Source: a virus (lineage: Duplodnaviria > Caudoviricetes). Taken from it: a stretch of DNA of 61,951 nt. Made by a program: the position numbers and the translations under genes. The notes beneath the pieces are model-generated. The model was not told the origin of the DNA, made no database searches, and saw only the letters and a list, made by a program, of their open reading frames with translations. The DNA lies in the IMG/VR virus record IMGVR_UViG_3300017971_000301, positions 1 to 61,951 of that record. One strand, given 5' to 3'. Below, piece by piece: positions 8,981 to 14,788 of this stretch (the stretch's first letter is position 1; each line of letters opens with the position of its first letter).

Positions 8981-9553
8981 ATGGTTATTATCGTAGAAGG
9001 GCCCGATGGCTCCGGGAAAAGTTACCTGGTCGATCGAATGGTTGAATCAGGTAACTTTTTCCGTTATCCACCGACGCACCAAGGACCACCGAAAACACGA
9101 GAAGAACTGATTGATCGGCTTGAAACAACTCTAGCTGTTCATCAGAGTTCTGGACTCTCCCCACAAACACCTGTGTTCGACAGATTTGGTTTATTCTCTG
9201 AACAGATTTATGGATCAATTGTTCGCAAAAAAGAAGGCGGTTGCGTCTTAACAAATCAGGATATTCGTCGATTCGAAAACCGGGTAAGAGAAATGAATGC
9301 CCGTGTTATCTACTGTCGCCCTTCCTTAAGGACCCTGAAGTCTGTTCACCTGGAAGTTAAACCCCACAAGAATCACCAACACATATATCGAGTTATCCAG
9401 AACCAGCAAACCATAATCATAGAGTATGATATCCTGATGTTCAAATATGAACGAAAAGGATTTGAGATTATTCGATACAATCGGGATATTCATGACGTAA
9501 AAGGAGTAATCGAATATGTGCGGGCTTGCGTTTTGTCTGGGGAGGGACCATAG
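8981..9553 (+). CDS. P-loop nucleoside monophosphate kinase (thymidylate-kinase-like)
   Basis: IIVEGPDGSGKS Walker A; FDRF...SEQIYG motif. Confidence 0.8.
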   Translation: MVIIVEGPDGSGKSYLVDRMVESGNFFRYPPTHQGPPKTREELIDRLETTLAVHQSSGLSPQTPVFDRFGLFSEQIYGSIVRKKEGGCVLTNQDIRRFENRVREMNARVIYCRPSLRTLKSVHLEVKPHKNHQHIYRVIQNQQTIIIEYDILMFKYERKGFEIIRYNRDIHDVKGVIEYVRACVLSGEGP

Positions 9554-10907
9554 AGAAAAAACAGAGCACATGATCAAAAACCTGTCCCATAGGGGATTGG
9601 CAGATCGAGTCGGTTTTTATAGTGGACACAATTACTCCCTTGGCCATATTCGTTTACCAATCCAGGGATTGGCTCAGGTCTTTGATCAACCTTATTCTAG
9701 ATTCACCCATAAGAACAAGATGGTGTATGTCGGGGAAGTCTTTAACTTTGATCAGTTTATCCACAACCAATCAGACGTCCCAATCGTATACAATATAGTT
9801 CACAATGGACTGATCCAGGCTTTCGATAAGTTAGATGGATTCTGGTCGATTGTTTATGTAAACGAGGATGAAAAAACTGCCTATGTTTACACCGATCATT
9901 TGGCAAAGAAGCCGCTGTATATTCTTCGGGAAGAGGAAACAGTAGCAATATGCTCTGAAATTATTCCATTGGTTCTAATCGCTGAGGAACTAAGATGGAA
10001 TCACCACGATATTTCTGTCACAGGGAAGTGGGGATATTCCCCATTGAACACAACTCCATTTGCAAACATCGACAAGATTCCTGCCAATACTAGATTCGTC
10101 CTGGATCTAGAATCACACACAACTATCGAAACTATTTCTCCTTACTTAAACTTCCCAAAGGATCCTAAATTATCGCTTTCGGGAGCCATGGAACAAGCCG
10201 TAAAGAATCGATTAGTTTCAGACATCCCAATTTCTCTTCTGTTATCGGGAGGATTAGACAGTACAATTGTGTATCAATTAGTTCGAAAATATACCTCGGA
10301 TATCACTATTTTTCATATTGATAACGATGAGTCAGAATACCTGAACTATCTAGATTTCAAAGGAGTTGATGTTCGACAGATCCAGTTCAATCCAGAAGGA
10401 AATACAAGCATTGTTGAGGCTTTATTGTCAAACCAGACTCCTGTTGACTTGGGTTCAATGGTTCAACAGTTTCTTCTGTCTAAAGAAATCAGTCGACATG
10501 GGCGAAATGTAGCTATCTCCGGCGACGGCGCTGATGAACTATTCGGCGGATACAGGAGAGCCAAACTGTATGATTCTCAACAATCAGATATCTGGGATGA
10601 ATTGGTTCACTATCATTTACCTCGATTGGATCGGCAAATGATGGTACACACTGTCGAACTGCGCTGTCCCTTCCTATCACCTGAGGTAATCAACTACGCT
10701 CTAACGGTTCCTTATGAACAAAGAACTAGCAAGCAGATCCTAAAAACCACCTTTGCCAATATCGTTCCTCGCCCAATCCTGGAACGAGAAAAGGTACCAC
10801 TGAAGATCAAACAGATCAGAACAGATCCACTTAATTGGCGACTGGATCTAATTGAAATCTTTATCAGAGAAATAGGAGGGATCTATGAACGTGGACGATA
10901 TCAGTGA
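9516..10907 (+). CDS. asparagine synthetase B-like glutamine-dependent amidotransferase
   Basis: N-terminal MCG (Ntn Cys), HRG, GEVFN, KKPLY, LSGGLDS, SGDGADELFGGY, ELRCPFL. Confidence 0.9.
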   Translation: MCGLAFCLGRDHREKTEHMIKNLSHRGLADRVGFYSGHNYSLGHIRLPIQGLAQVFDQPYSRFTHKNKMVYVGEVFNFDQFIHNQSDVPIVYNIVHNGLIQAFDKLDGFWSIVYVNEDEKTAYVYTDHLAKKPLYILREEETVAICSEIIPLVLIAEELRWNHHDISVTGKWGYSPLNTTPFANIDKIPANTRFVLDLESHTTIETISPYLNFPKDPKLSLSGAMEQAVKNRLVSDIPISLLLSGGLDSTIVYQLVRKYTSDITIFHIDNDESEYLNYLDFKGVDVRQIQFNPEGNTSIVEALLSNQTPVDLGSMVQQFLLSKEISRHGRNVAISGDGADELFGGYRRAKLYDSQQSDIWDELVHYHLPRLDRQMMVHTVELRCPFLSPEVINYALTVPYEQRTSKQILKTTFANIVPRPILEREKVPLKIKQIRTDPLNWRLDLIEIFIREIGGIYERGRYQ

Positions 10908-11304
10908 TGAAGAAGTTCGGATCGAAGGGGACAAACTGGAGGCCATATTCGATCGTCAACGAGAACTGATGGAAAAGTATGACGAGATTGAAGAACAAAA
11001 CGAACTTCTTCAAACTGCCGATGTTCCCGTGGATCTGAATTCTCATCTAGGGCAAGCTCGATTAAAGGATTTCGCTTGGAGAATAACCGAGGAGTTGGGT
11101 GAGGCCATGAACTGTCTGAAGAACAAGCCCTGGAAAACGACTCAGATGTTGACAGACCAAACCCATTATCTGGAAGAACTGGCTGACGCTTTCCACTTCA
11201 TGATTGAACTGATGATCTTGTCGGGTCTGGATGCGGAATCACTAACGCAGATCTATTTGAAGAAGTCGCTGGTTAACAAGTTTCGGCAACGTTCGAAGTA
11301 CTAA
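10885..11304 (+). CDS. dimeric all-alpha dUTPase/dCTPase (MazG-like)
   Basis: EELGEAMNCLKNKPWK...LEELADAFHF...KS.VN..RQ pattern. Confidence 0.8.
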   Translation: MNVDDISDEEVRIEGDKLEAIFDRQRELMEKYDEIEEQNELLQTADVPVDLNSHLGQARLKDFAWRITEELGEAMNCLKNKPWKTTQMLTDQTHYLEELADAFHFMIELMILSGLDAESLTQIYLKKSLVNKFRQRSKY

Positions 11305-11305
11305 T

Positions 11306-13390: not shown

Positions 13391-14094
13391 GAATATTCCA
13401 GAGTGCCATAGAAATGGCGGGGGAGGTCGCGCGGGATCTCTGGGAGATGGGGATTCGTTACCAATCTACAACAGTGCAAGACCAACAGGTAGCGAACAAT
13501 CCCAAGTTCCAAACGATCGAGCTTTTCGGCTACGGTTACACGTTAACATTGTACGAAGACGTGCAGCACTTGATTGATCACTTTGGTCTAAATGCAGACT
13601 GGGTGTTTAACGAAGAGGATGAACGTCTTCACAAGGGACTTCTTTTTCTTCCATTAAATCCAGGGCGCGCTTGGGAACTAAACAAAAAGTTCTGGACGCC
13701 ATTTCTTCGAGACGGTAAGTTTGCATATTCCTACGCGGAACGTTGGCAAGAACAGATTGACTATGTAATCAATGAGCTGAATATACGCCCGAACACCAGA
13801 CAAGCTATCATGACCATGTATGATCGACACCAGGACATGCTGAACTGGGGCGGTCGAGACCGAGTGCCCTGTAGTATATCCTATCAATTTATGATTCGGA
13901 ATGACATGCTTCATTTGATTTACAATCAGCGATCCTGCGACTTTGTCAAGTTTTTTGGATCTGATGTTTATCTTACCATTCAGCTTCTAAAGCATGTCGC
14001 CAAGAATGTTGGTGTGGTTCCAGGATATTTCACCCATTTCCTCGGGTCACTTCATGCTTTTGCCGGTGATTTGGAAAACAAGGGAATCTTCTAA
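13387..14094 (+). CDS. thymidylate-synthase-fold enzyme, predicted dCMP (hydroxy)methylase
   Basis: NTRQA, VPC (catalytic Cys), YQFMIR, QRSCD-N7-D (Asp where dUMP-specific TS has Asn), GSLH. Confidence 0.8.
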   Translation: MRIFQSAIEMAGEVARDLWEMGIRYQSTTVQDQQVANNPKFQTIELFGYGYTLTLYEDVQHLIDHFGLNADWVFNEEDERLHKGLLFLPLNPGRAWELNKKFWTPFLRDGKFAYSYAERWQEQIDYVINELNIRPNTRQAIMTMYDRHQDMLNWGGRDRVPCSISYQFMIRNDMLHLIYNQRSCDFVKFFGSDVYLTIQLLKHVAKNVGVVPGYFTHFLGSLHAFAGDLENKGIF

Positions 14095-14285
14095 TGGAAG
14101 AAAAGGAAATCACTCAGGCTTATGAGAAGCTGTTCGATTGGATAAAAACAACAGGCCTCAATCCTCAGCAACGGATAGTTGTGTTGAAATCCTGCGCTAT
14201 GATTATGGAGAATATTGTCGCATCAGAGGCTCAAATGCAGATGCTGGGGAATATGGTCAAGAACCCATTGGGGATCGGAAAATGA
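14094..14285 (+). CDS. hypothetical protein
   Basis: TAATG and ATGA coupling to both neighbours. Confidence 0.55.
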   Translation: MEEKEITQAYEKLFDWIKTTGLNPQQRIVVLKSCAMIMENIVASEAQMQMLGNMVKNPLGIGK

Positions 14286-14788
14286 ATCGATTAGACAAAC
14301 ATGAATGCTTTATGGGAATTGCCCGACTGATCGCGGGTAGATCAGCTTGTCTTCATCAACAAGTAGGAGCTGTTTTGATCAACCAGAATAACCACATCTT
14401 AGCTGCGGCCTATAATGGCCCGTCGGTCGGTGTTCCTCATTGCACAAAAGAAACCTGTCTCCGGAAAAATATTGGAAGTGGACAGGAAATTGGAACATGC
14501 TATGCCGCCCATGCAGAGATGAATGCAGTTCTTCAATGTCGAGACCCATATTCAATTGTGGTTGCCTACGTTACCCTGGAGCCTTGCCTAATGTGCACTG
14601 CCATTTTACTTAACACATCCTGTAAAGTCATAATATACGATAAGAAATACGCGGGATCAGGAAAGGAAATATGGAAAAAGCAAAACAGATTATGGGTGCC
14701 TTTCAGTCAACTATGTTCAAACCCGAAAGTGATTGGAAATTACCTGAGAGCCTACCCCGACTCTCCGATGCCAAAGCTATCGGATTAG
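14282..14788 (+). CDS. dCMP deaminase (ComEB-like)
   Basis: RSAC...VGAVL...YNG...HAEMNA...YVTLEPCLMC. Confidence 0.9.
   Translation: MNRLDKHECFMGIARLIAGRSACLHQQVGAVLINQNNHILAAAYNGPSVGVPHCTKETCLRKNIGSGQEIGTCYAAHAEMNAVLQCRDPYSIVVAYVTLEPCLMCTAILLNTSCKVIIYDKKYAGSGKEIWKKQNRLWVPFSQLCSNPKVIGNYLRAYPDSPMPKLSD

What the first reader, a model, noticed from the sequence alone, without database searches (positions are those of the whole stretch)
8981..14788. Hybrid cytosine hypermodification operon: pre-replicative dCMP pathway plus amidotransferase plus atypical C5-MTase
Seen: one tightly coupled operon directly upstream of PolA encodes a dNMP kinase, an AsnB-like amidotransferase, a dimeric dUTPase/dCTPase, an unknown protein, a UDG-fold protein, a C5-MTase fold, a TS fold with the dCMP-type Asp, and a dCMP deaminase; ThyX is encoded separately. 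Established: T4 uses a dCTPase (gp56), dCMP hydroxymethylase (gp42) and dNMP kinase (gp1) to replace C before replication; AsnB-like enzymes amidate carboxylates. Inference: two enzymes that both attack cytosine C5 (TS fold and MTase fold), together with an amide ligase, is not the T4 scheme. It suggests a mixed or new base, e.g. hm5C/m5C alongside carboxymethyl- or carbamoylmethyl-C, or an MTase-fold enzyme acting on a nucleotide. This is the best candidate here for an undescribed anti-defence chemistry.
Basis: partly seen in the sequence, partly recalled or inferred. Interest (0 to 1): 0.9.

Follow-up and report, generated by a model that had tools for sequence, protein, structure and literature searches.

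The report
Unknown amide-bearing cytosine pathway in phage
An uncultured marine phage carries a conserved gene set that probably replaces DNA cytosine with an undescribed base bearing an amide group, which matters because such bases let phages escape bacterial defences and none of this type has been characterised.

Summary
Window 8981-14788 is one packed + strand operon upstream of PolA. It encodes a nucleotide kinase, a glutamine-dependent AsnB-like amidotransferase, an NTP pyrophosphatase, an unknown protein, a UDG-like protein, a C5-MTase-fold protein, a TS-fold protein with Asp at the N177 site, a 63-codon ORF and a dCMP deaminase. ThyX lies elsewhere.

The genes co-occur in other phages. 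Of 44 viral loci with the MTase family, 40 have the TS-like gene and 37 the AsnB-like gene.

The dependence is one-sided. 61 of 62 further AsnB-family loci lack the MTase. Of these, 32 have the TS-like gene and 23 a kinase directly upstream. One complete 348-kb phage has the AsnB-like and TS-like genes but no C5-MTase and no CmoA.

So the core is TS-like plus kinase plus amidotransferase, and the MTase-like enzyme is an accessory. Both C5-attacking enzymes carry an invariant cationic residue facing the C5 substituent: Arg at TS L143, and Lys at MTase motif X.

The closest published system is CmoA/CmoX/CmoY (5-carboxymethyl-C and its glycine amide). Its defining features are not met here.

The chemistry is unknown, but an amide-bearing 5-substituted cytosine is likely. 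Earlier notes of this scan reached the same view on other DNA.

The parts
8981..9553 (+). P-loop nucleotide (dNMP) kinase-like protein, 190 aa. Its end overlaps the AsnB-like start by 38 bases.
   Evidence: phrog_761 thymidylate kinase 4e-9. No Pfam or NCBIfam hit. A 17-sequence profile matches YorR 7e-12, deoxyguanosine kinase 5e-6 and thymidylate kinase 9e-6. A kinase sits directly upstream of the AsnB-like gene in 23 further loci.
9516..10907 (+). Glutamine-dependent AsnB-like amidotransferase, 463 aa. It has an MCG start and an SGGLDS PP-loop.
   Evidence: Asn_synthase 9e-40 and GATase_7 2.3e-10. TIGR01536 scores 209.9 bits, below its cutoff of 267.1. The family profile matches E. coli AsnB at 9e-48. 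Cys2 is present in 94 of 99 family members; the other 5 are gaps at cut ends. The PP-loop is present in at least 96 of 99.
10885..11304 (+). All-alpha NTP pyrophosphatase (dimeric dUTPase/dCTPase type), 139 aa.
   Evidence: dUTPase_2 7.5e-9. phrog_12184 nucleotide pyrophosphohydrolase 9.9e-37. Present in 24 of 44 related loci.
11306..11650 (+). Unknown 114-aa protein.
   Evidence: No Pfam, PHROG or NCBIfam hit. The Atlas gives only unnamed viral clusters. Relatives occur in 3 of 44 loci.
11643..12176 (+). Family-4 UDG-like protein, 177 aa, probably replication-associated.
   Evidence: UDG 2.1e-8. NF040953 scores 47.3 bits, below its cutoff of 250. A UDG-like match is found in 3 of 44 loci; in L019 it lies about 640 bases upstream of the PolA match, within the span of a 772-aa ORF. 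UDG in trans or fused to phage PolA is described in PMC13697223 (abstract only).
12176..13390 (+). C5-MTase-fold protein, 404 aa, with rebuilt motifs: GHPECG for motif IV, DNL for ENV, GK for the GN of motif X, and a C-terminal 4-Cys cluster.
   Evidence: DNA_methylase 5.8e-22. In the 120-member family K331 is present in 120 of 120, C81 in 119, G82 in 119 and D117 in 119. The profile matches M.HaeIII at 1.4e-20 and SpCmoX (8yf3) at 4.6e-5. AF2 model pLDDT 88.8. Foldseek hits are DNA C5-MTases, with 8yf3 at rank 10.
13387..14094 (+). Thymidylate-synthase-fold dCMP C5-transferase, 235 aa. It has Cys146, Asp169 and Asp177, with Arg at the L143 site.
   Evidence: Thymidylat_synt 2.6e-13. All 73 family members from related loci have R, C, R, D and D at positions 143/146/166/169/177. 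Known hydroxymethylases align Asp, and the 9iqu enzyme Glu, to this Arg. 378 representatives score E<=1e-30.
14094..14285 (+). 63-codon ORF, translationally coupled on both sides. Unknown function.
   Evidence: TAATG overlap at the TS stop and ATGA overlap at the deaminase start. No family hit. No relative was found in the 65 loci searched.
14282..14788 (+). dCMP deaminase. The ATG at 14282 is the likely start; the longest ORF starts at a TTG at 14138.
   Evidence: dCMP_cyt_deam_1 5.5e-16, with the domain starting at residue 54 of the long ORF. phrog_174 2.8e-29. Sequence read. Present in 33 of 44 loci.
14671..16587 (+). Family A DNA polymerase with 3'-5' exonuclease. Context: the enzyme that would have to accept the modified dNTP.
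   Evidence: DNA_pol_A 3.8e-69 and DNA_pol_A_exo1 1.2e-9.
57616..58314 (+). ThyX, the flavin-dependent thymidylate synthase. It is the separate dTMP supply.
   Evidence: Thy1 8.5e-48.

Best explanation
The operon is a pre-replicative cytosine-replacement pathway of an uncharacterised type. Its core is the TS-fold enzyme, the nucleotide kinase and the AsnB-like amidotransferase.

Proposed steps:
1. The NTP pyrophosphatase turns dCTP (and dUTP) into monophosphates. Inferred from family.
2. The TS-fold enzyme attacks C6 of dCMP with its cysteine and builds a new C5 substituent. Asp177 and the catalytic Cys are shown in the sequence; the substrate is inferred. The residue within 6 A of C5 that is acidic in known hydroxymethylases and hydroxylases is an invariant Arg here. 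I therefore propose that the substituent, or the nucleophile that captures the methylene intermediate, carries a carboxylate. This is inference.
3. The AsnB-like enzyme adenylates that carboxylate and converts it to a carboxamide with glutamine-derived ammonia. Cys2 and the PP-loop are shown in the sequence; the substrate is inferred.
4. The coupled kinase makes the diphosphate, and host NDP kinase and the phage PolA put the new base into DNA. Inferred.
5. dCMP deaminase and ThyX keep dTTP supplied. Inferred.
6. The Lys-type C5-MTase-fold enzyme is a DNA-level accessory found only in phages that have this pathway. It either finishes cytosines that escaped replacement with a matching anionic group, or processes the new base. 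Which of these it does is open.

The end product is an amide-bearing 5-substituted cytosine of unknown structure.
For: Gene content and coupling.

TS-like residues: Arg143, Cys146, Arg166, Asp169 and Asp177 are present in 73 of 73 family members from related loci. Among the 150 best library representatives, 131 fit the fixed-spacing motif; of these 129 have Arg143 and 130 have Asp177. T4 dCMP hydroxymethylase and MilA align Asp to this Arg, and the 9iqu enzyme aligns Glu. L143 lies within 6 A of C5, and L143D/E marks non-methyl products (PMC13326640, sections 24 and 28).

Census from the MTase side: 40 of 44 loci have the TS-like gene, and the 4 without it are contigs cut near the MTase. 37 of 44 have the AsnB-like gene.

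Census from the AsnB side: 61 of 62 loci (AsnB identity 31-52%) have no MTase match. 32 have the TS-like gene directly upstream and 23 have a P-loop kinase directly upstream.

A complete 348,582-base phage has the AsnB-like gene and a TS-like match (E 8.8e-75) about 96 kb apart. It has no PF00145 and no CmoA match.

The kinase profile matches nucleoside and nucleotide kinases.

AsnB-like: Cys2 is present in 94 of 99 and the PP-loop in at least 96 of 99.
Against: - No chemistry was measured. The carboxylate is an inference from the AsnB family and from two cationic residues.
- Asp169 is kept, which suggests an ordinary folate cofactor and hence a one-carbon unit with no carboxylate of its own.
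- The same Arg143 TS clade occurs in cultured Clostridium phages at 38% identity. These gave no AsnB-like match in the phage collection. So Arg143 does not by itself imply an amidated product.
- Three MTase loci with flanks of several kb (L032, L039, L042) show no AsnB-like gene.
- The window record is about 85% complete, so a missing gene such as cmoA cannot be excluded for this phage itself.
Confidence: 0.5

Rival explanations
1. CmoX/CmoY-type route on DNA. The Lys-type MTase-fold enzyme uses carboxy-SAM from the host's CmoA to put a carboxymethyl group on C5 of DNA cytosine. The AsnB-like enzyme then amidates it to 5-carbamoylmethylcytosine. The TS-like pathway is separate, giving a mixed genome.
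For: Lys at the HhaI N304 / SpCmoX R350 site is present in 120 of 120 family members, and Gly replaces the Gln after the catalytic Cys in 119 of 120. An engineered Asn-to-Lys change (M.MpeI N374K) gives carboxy-SAM use, as quoted in PMC12783734 (Discussion). That paper predicts ammonia-using ligases with a glutaminase domain next to CmoX, untested. E29-W30 match the Glu-Phe pair that holds the cofactor in SpCmoX. The AsnB-like gene lies directly beside the MTase in many relatives.
Against: No CmoA (TIGR00740) was found in the window, in 5 MTase-type virus records (4 at least 92% complete) or in 4 AsnB-only records. The AsnB family occurs without the MTase in 61 of 62 loci. The MTase is never seen without the TS-like gene in uncut loci, which this model does not explain. 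The SPPC motif and Arg350 that define CmoX are absent. The related loci span 29-65% G+C, which suggests diverse hosts, and carboxy-SAM may not be available in all of them (recalled, not tested).
Confidence: 0.2
2. The MTase-fold enzyme works on the pre-installed base, for example 5-hydroxymethylcytosine. Covalent attack at C6 lets it exchange or extend the C5 side chain, and the AsnB-like enzyme then amidates the product on DNA.
For: The MTase strictly co-occurs with the TS-like gene. The catalytic Cys is invariant and inteins are inserted at that site in two relatives. The pocket around C5 is rebuilt: Q to G, N to K and E to D. C5-MTases are known to catalyse side reactions on 5hmC in vitro (recalled; also raised in note e1-6036372).
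Against: Most AsnB-like plus TS-like loci have no MTase, so the amidation substrate must exist without it. The cofactor-binding residues are kept, which points to a SAM-type donor rather than cofactor-free exchange.
Confidence: 0.12
3. There is no joint chemistry. The phage has an ordinary 5hmC or 5mC replacement set, an orphan C5 methylase for restriction evasion, and an asparagine synthetase carried as an auxiliary metabolic gene.
For: Each protein hits a common family. The closest solved relatives of the AsnB-like family are true asparagine synthetases.
Against: The gene set is conserved across loci of 29-65% G+C, with adjacency and start/stop overlaps. The AsnB-like protein scores below the NCBIfam equivalog cutoff and is about 90 residues shorter than E. 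coli AsnB. The MTase motifs ENV and GN are replaced in at least 119 of 120. The TS-like enzyme has neither the hydrophobic nor the acidic residue of characterised enzymes at position 143.
Confidence: 0.1

Closest known systems
CmoA/CmoX/CmoY of Synechococcus phage S-B43 (Yang et al. 2025, PMC12783734; Results and Discussion read)
   Same: A C5-MTase-fold enzyme with a cationic residue at the HhaI N304 site is paired with an asparagine-synthetase-like AMP-forming ligase in a phage. The paper also predicts ligases with a glutaminase domain.
   Different: Here the residue is Lys rather than Arg, and the motif is HPEC rather than SPPC. No CmoA is found. SpCmoX is only a weak match (profile E 4.6e-5, Foldseek rank 10). 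The ligase family mostly occurs without any MTase and always in the company of a dCMP-specific TS homologue. The acceptor carboxylate therefore need not come from carboxy-SAM.
T4-type pre-replicative 5-hydroxymethyl-dCMP pathway (gp56 dCTPase, gp42, gp1, cd), and its carbamoyltransferase variant from MetaGPA (PMC8670742, passages read)
   Same: NTP pyrophosphatase, a TS homologue with Asp177, a dNMP kinase and a dCMP deaminase are clustered near the polymerase.
   Different: Position 143 is Arg, not Asp or Glu. The decorating enzymes are an amidotransferase and an MTase-fold protein, not glycosyl- or carbamoyltransferases.
5-hydroxy-dCMP synthases of RB69/DLP3 (Lee et al. 2026, PMC13326640, sections 24 and 28 read). 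The best solved match, 9iqu/9iqc, has the same D169N signature.
   Same: A TS homologue acts on dCMP, and these are the closest solved sequences (E 3.5e-20 with the profile).
   Different: The diagnostic D169N change is absent (Asp in 73 of 73). Position 143 is Arg rather than Glu.
Engineered carboxymethyltransferase M.MpeI N374K (as quoted in PMC12783734, Discussion; original paper not read)
   Same: The same Asn-to-Lys change in motix X.
   Different: Here the change is natural, invariant in a large viral family, and combined with further changes (PEC-G, DNL/DDL). The cofactor is untested.

Membership tests
CmoX (DNA cytosine C5-carboxymethyltransferase, PMC12783734) | C5-MTase fold | tested here: met
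   PF00145 5.8e-22. AF2 model pLDDT 88.8. Foldseek 8yf3 E 5.8e-13, TM 0.67 by target.
CmoX (DNA cytosine C5-carboxymethyltransferase, PMC12783734) | SPPC motif around the catalytic Cys | tested here: not met
   The protein reads GHPECG. In the family H78 is present in 118 of 120, P79 in 107 and E80 in 109.
CmoX (DNA cytosine C5-carboxymethyltransferase, PMC12783734) | Arg at position 350 (HhaI N304 site) contacting the carboxymethyl group | tested here: not met
   Lys in 120 of 120. Placed by alignment of KQxGKxMP to the GNAVP of M.HaeIII. A cationic residue is present, but not Arg.
CmoX (DNA cytosine C5-carboxymethyltransferase, PMC12783734) | Phage-encoded CmoA in the neighbourhood (4257 CmoA for 5615 CmoX in the paper) | tested here: not met
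   TIGR00740 gave 0 matches in the window and in 9 related virus records. The window record is only about 85% complete.
CmoX (DNA cytosine C5-carboxymethyltransferase, PMC12783734) | Transfer from carboxy-SAM to DNA cytosine | not testable with these tools
   Needs an enzyme assay.
CmoY-type ligase, glutaminase-bearing cluster (PMC12783734) | Asparagine-synthetase homologue with an N-terminal glutamine-hydrolysing domain, encoded next to CmoX | tested here: inconclusive
   The domains are present and the gene lies next to the MTase-fold gene in relatives. However, 61 of 62 further family loci lack any such MTase. Membership of the paper's cluster could not be checked because supplements are closed.
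T4-type dCMP hydroxymethylase | Catalytic Cys146 and Asp at the N177 site | tested here: met
   73 of 73.
T4-type dCMP hydroxymethylase | Acidic residue at the L143 site (PMC13326640) | tested here: not met
   Arg in 73 of 73. T4 gp42 and MilA align Asp there.
5-hydroxy-dCMP synthase | D169N (PMC13326640) | tested here: not met
   Asp in 73 of 73.
Canonical thymidylate synthase / dCMP methylase | Hydrophobic L143; Asn177 for dUMP | tested here: not met
   Arg143 and Asp177. All NCBIfam TS models score below their cutoffs.
Asparagine synthetase B (TIGR01536 equivalog) | Score above the curated cutoff | tested here: not met
   209.9 bits against a cutoff of 267.1.
Canonical DNA C5-methyltransferase | Motif IV PCQ, motif VI ENV, motif X GN | tested here: not met
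   PEC-G, DNL (DDL in about half of the family) and GK. The Cys, the RxR of motif VIII and the Glu of motif II are kept.
Family-4 uracil-DNA glycosylase | Score above curated cutoffs | tested here: inconclusive
   Pfam UDG scores 34.8, above its cutoff of 24.3. NF040953 scores 47.3 (cutoff 250) and TIGR00758 scores 34.9 (cutoff 125.3), both below cutoff.

The most novel reading that the evidence does not exclude
Two unrelated folds that both activate cytosine C5 have each replaced a neutral or acidic pocket residue with a cation that faces the incoming C5 group. These are Leu143 to Arg in the TS fold and Asn304 to Lys in the MTase fold. That would mean both handle the same carboxylate-bearing substituent, one on dCMP before replication and one on DNA afterwards. 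The glutamine amidotransferase would then neutralise the substituent to a carboxamide. The virion DNA would carry a cytosine derivative never described, for example an amino-acid-amide or carbamoyl-alkyl side chain, made without carboxy-SAM in most carriers.
Probability: 0.25. Interest if true: 0.9.

Novelty: new variant of a known kind. Interest (0 to 1): 0.72.

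Why it matters
Phage base hypermodifications defeat restriction enzymes and CRISPR nucleases, and they have supplied tools for epigenome sequencing.

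This module is widespread in uncultured phages. The TS clade has 378 representatives at 50% identity with E<=1e-30. The MTase family search gave 469 hits at E<=0.001, the best 120 of which score E<=1e-99. 544 AsnB-like viral stretches were confirmed.

I found no close AsnB-like or MTase-family relative in a cultured phage, and no paper naming the product.

If the product is solved, three things follow:
- a new natural DNA base;
- a new product class for thymidylate-synthase homologues, marked by Arg143;
- a natural Lys-type C5 transferase that can be compared with the engineered carboxymethyltransferases.

Tried and rejected
Searches for close relatives in cultured phages:
- megablast of the operon against 50,697 phage records gave no match.
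- The MTase protein found only 22-30% identity hits, and the AsnB-like protein only 21-25%.

Host assignment:
- A scan of 185,579 species' genomes with the MTase profile gave 3 loci. One is a 75-kb phage contig binned into a MAG and has the same coordinates as L006. One is a short MAG contig. One is an N-terminal fragment in a 2.8-Mb contig. No host could be named.

Arg143 as a marker of AsnB association: rejected. Clostridium phage CPD4 has Arg143, and no Clostridium phage matched the AsnB-like protein.

Neighbours of unknown function gave nothing in Pfam or PHROGs, and for the 114-aa protein nothing in the Atlas. These were the 114-aa protein, 7915-8940, and the conserved ORFs beside the AsnB-like gene in the large phages.

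Complex prediction of the AsnB-like protein with the kinase gave no verdict. It counts neither for nor against binding.

The look-up of sequencing runs: three holders (sediment and seawater metagenomes), all possible sources and all kept as contigs. No RNA holder was listed, and there were no raw or nanopore reads. Read laying was therefore not used, and no read-level sign of modification could be sought.

I therefore could not see whether this AsnB-like family is the paper's second ligase cluster, or whether Lys-type enzymes were seen and filtered out.

Full report
WHAT IS THERE

The window is a linear IMG/VR virus record of 61,951 bases, estimated about 85% complete. Sediment and seawater metagenomes hold it. 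On the + strand, 8981-14788 is a run of genes that overlap or are 1 base apart.

The genes, in order:
- A P-loop kinase at 8981-9553. It has no Pfam hit, matches phrog_761 at 4e-9, and a profile of relatives matches YorR, deoxynucleoside kinases and thymidylate kinases.
- An AsnB-like protein at 9516-10907 with both the glutaminase and synthetase domains. It has an MCG start and an SGGLDS loop.
- A dimeric-dUTPase-type NTP pyrophosphatase at 10885-11304.
- An unknown 114-aa protein at 11306-11650.
- A family-4 UDG-like protein at 11643-12176.
- A C5-MTase-fold protein at 12176-13390.
- A TS-fold protein at 13387-14094.
- A 63-codon ORF at 14094-14285, coupled by TAATG and ATGA overlaps.
- A dCMP deaminase, whose likely start is 14282.
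- PolA follows at 14671-16587.

ThyX lies at 57616-58314. The small ORF and the later deaminase start are additions.

THE TWO C5-ATTACKING ENZYMES

The TS-fold protein keeps the catalytic Cys, Arg166, Ser167 and Asp169, and has Asp at the N177 site. PMC13326640 (sections 24 and 28) gives diagnostic residues for TS homologues:
- N177D marks dCMP as substrate.
- L143D/E marks non-methyl products.
- D169N marks 5-hydroxy-dCMP synthases.
- L143 lies within 6 A of C5.

Here position 143 is Arg. All 73 family members taken from related loci have Arg143, Cys146, Arg166, Asp169 and Asp177. Among the 150 best library representatives, 131 fit a fixed-spacing motif. Of those, 129 have Arg143, 128 have Asp169 and 130 have Asp177. 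The other 19 have indels and were not scored. T4 dCMP hydroxymethylase and MilA align Asp to this Arg, and the 9iqu enzyme aligns Glu. This is therefore a distinct TS clade, probably dCMP-specific, with an unknown product.

The MTase-fold protein reads GHPECG (motif IV), DNL (motif VI) and KQLGK (motif X). Residue counts in 120 family members:
- Lys331: 120 of 120
- Arg159: 120 of 120
- Cys81: 119
- Gly82: 119
- Asp117: 119
- His78: 118
- Glu29: 115
- Trp30: 113
- Each of the four C-terminal Cys: 116-119

Lys331 aligns to the Asn of GNAVP in M.HaeIII. This is the HhaI N304 / SpCmoX R350 site that touches the carboxymethyl group of carboxy-SAM. The AF2 model is confident, with pLDDT 88.8. It matches DNA C5-MTases in general, with SpCmoX (8yf3) only at rank 10.

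CO-OCCURRENCE, FROM THE MTASE SIDE

Two scans of IMG/VR gave 65 loci, of which 44 hold a family member at 33-70% identity.

By tblastn:
- 40 of 44 have the TS-like gene. The 4 without it (L011, L015, L027, L031) are contigs that end near the MTase.
- 37 of 44 have the AsnB-like gene. L032, L039 and L042 lack it despite flanks of several kb.

By ORF clustering:
- 33 have a dCMP deaminase.
- 24 have the pyrophosphatase.
- 11 have a P-loop kinase.

As a control, nine loci with ordinary C5-MTases of 22-28% identity have none of these genes. The loci span 29-65% G+C.

In about 19 loci an N6/N4 DNA methylase is adjacent or fused to the MTase-fold gene. Pfam confirmed this in 9 of 9 tested. Two loci have tandem C5-type paralogues. 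A UDG-like match is seen in 3 of 44 loci, so that gene is not part of the conserved set. UDG in trans or fused to phage PolA is described in PMC13697223 (abstract only).

CO-OCCURRENCE, FROM THE AsnB SIDE

This test was prompted by note e1-5359886.

Of the 62 new loci at 31-52% identity:
- 61 have no match to the MTase. The exception apart from these, L077, is the contig of L023.
- 32 have the TS-like gene directly upstream.
- 23 have a P-loop kinase directly upstream. This mirrors the 38-base kinase/AsnB overlap in the window.

The 16 loci at 24-28% identity have no TS-like match, and one of them (L146) has only a 24% match to the MTase.

Whole-record searches:
- PF00145 gave 0 of 9 AsnB-only records. 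Only one of them is complete.
- That complete 348,582-base phage has a TS-like match at E 8.8e-75 about 96 kb from its AsnB-like gene. It has no CmoA.
- CmoA (TIGR00740) was absent from the window, from 5 MTase-type records (4 at least 92% complete) and from 4 AsnB-only records.

READING

The MTase is never seen without the TS-like gene, while the AsnB-like gene is usually seen without the MTase. The core is therefore the TS-like enzyme, the kinase and the amidotransferase, in a T4-like nucleotide-level frame of pyrophosphatase, deaminase and separate ThyX. The MTase-fold enzyme is an accessory of that pathway.

An Ntn-glutaminase plus PP-loop enzyme of the AsnB family makes carboxamides from adenylated carboxylates (established family chemistry). 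So an amide on the C5 side chain is the most likely end point.

The origin of the carboxylate is not shown. I note that both C5-attacking enzymes carry an invariant cation at the residue that faces the C5 substituent. That fits a shared anionic group, but it is inference.

Against it:
- Asp169 suggests an ordinary folate cofactor.
- The Arg143 clade also occurs in cultured Clostridium phages that gave no AsnB-like match.

COMPARISON WITH THE LITERATURE

The closest system is CmoA/CmoX/CmoY (PMC12783734, Results and Discussion read). There a C5-MTase homologue with Arg350 and an SPPC motif uses carboxy-SAM from a phage CmoA, and an asparagine-synthetase homologue adds glycine. A second ligase cluster with a glutaminase domain is predicted to use ammonia, but it was not obtained in soluble form. 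Here SPPC, Arg350 and CmoA are all missing, so I do not file the protein as CmoX.

MetaGPA (PMC8670742, passages read) shows the same frame of TS-Asp177, pyrophosphatase and deaminase, but with a carbamoyltransferase.

Full-text searches found no paper naming an amide-bearing cytosine of this origin, nor this gene trio. Subscription journals and the closed supplements were not covered.

EARLIER NOTES OF THIS SCAN

One search lists several first-reader notes and three follow-up reports on other genomes. They describe the same MTase/AsnB/TS set and reach the same 'core plus add-on, chemistry unknown' view. I repeated the decisive census myself, as described above.

VERDICT

- It is a new variant of the known kind 'pre-replicative pyrimidine C5 modification with further tailoring'.
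- The product is unknown.

Noticed in passing
L043:8807-10969 and L150:5905-8256: Two homologues of the MTase-fold protein are single long ORFs of 720 and 783 aa. The match to the window protein breaks at residue 81, the catalytic Cys. In L043 the insert has Hint/intein-splicing and DUF559/MTES_1575 endonuclease domains, which makes it an intein at the active-site Cys.
   Followed up: partly
L001:9129-9998, L007:9992-12247, L023:9968-12274, L036:9788-12379 and others: An N6/N4 DNA methylase (PF01555) lies next to, or is fused to, the Lys-type C5-MTase-fold protein in about 19 of 44 related loci. The window lacks it. In the nearest relative, L001, it sits where the window has the UDG-like gene.
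   Followed up: partly
window 14094-14285: A 63-codon ORF is coupled by overlapping stop/start codons between the TS-like gene and the dCMP deaminase. It has no family hit, and no relative was found in the 65 loci searched.
   Followed up: partly
window 58360-59808 and 59838-61337: There are Pam3 gp33-like (DUF7307) and gp34-like proteins and an AEP-type primase (AEP-TOTE domain), followed by a NUDIX hydrolase at 61337-61783. This replication module is shared with some related loci.
   Followed up: no
L002:7531-7995, L006:7473-7925, L013:4839-5258 and similar: In the high-G+C relatives, the ORF in the kinase position upstream of the AsnB-like gene lacks a P-loop and starts with a conserved 'LGLxNPHS'-like stretch. 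It clustered with the kinases only by single linkage. Its nature is unknown.
   Followed up: no
L066 (Clostridium phage CPD4, 48884-49645 of MK017819.1): Cultured Clostridium perfringens phages (CPD4, CP3, CPAS-15 and others) encode the same Arg143/Asp177 TS clade at 38% identity. In CPD4 no MTase or amidotransferase is annotated in the 11.8 kb around it.
   Followed up: partly
window 7095-7631 and 7915-8940: Two upstream genes of unknown function (178 and 341 aa) are shared with the nearest relative L001, where each has two matching places. The only family hits are phrog_421 (unknown function) and a faint RFC small-subunit match.
   Followed up: no
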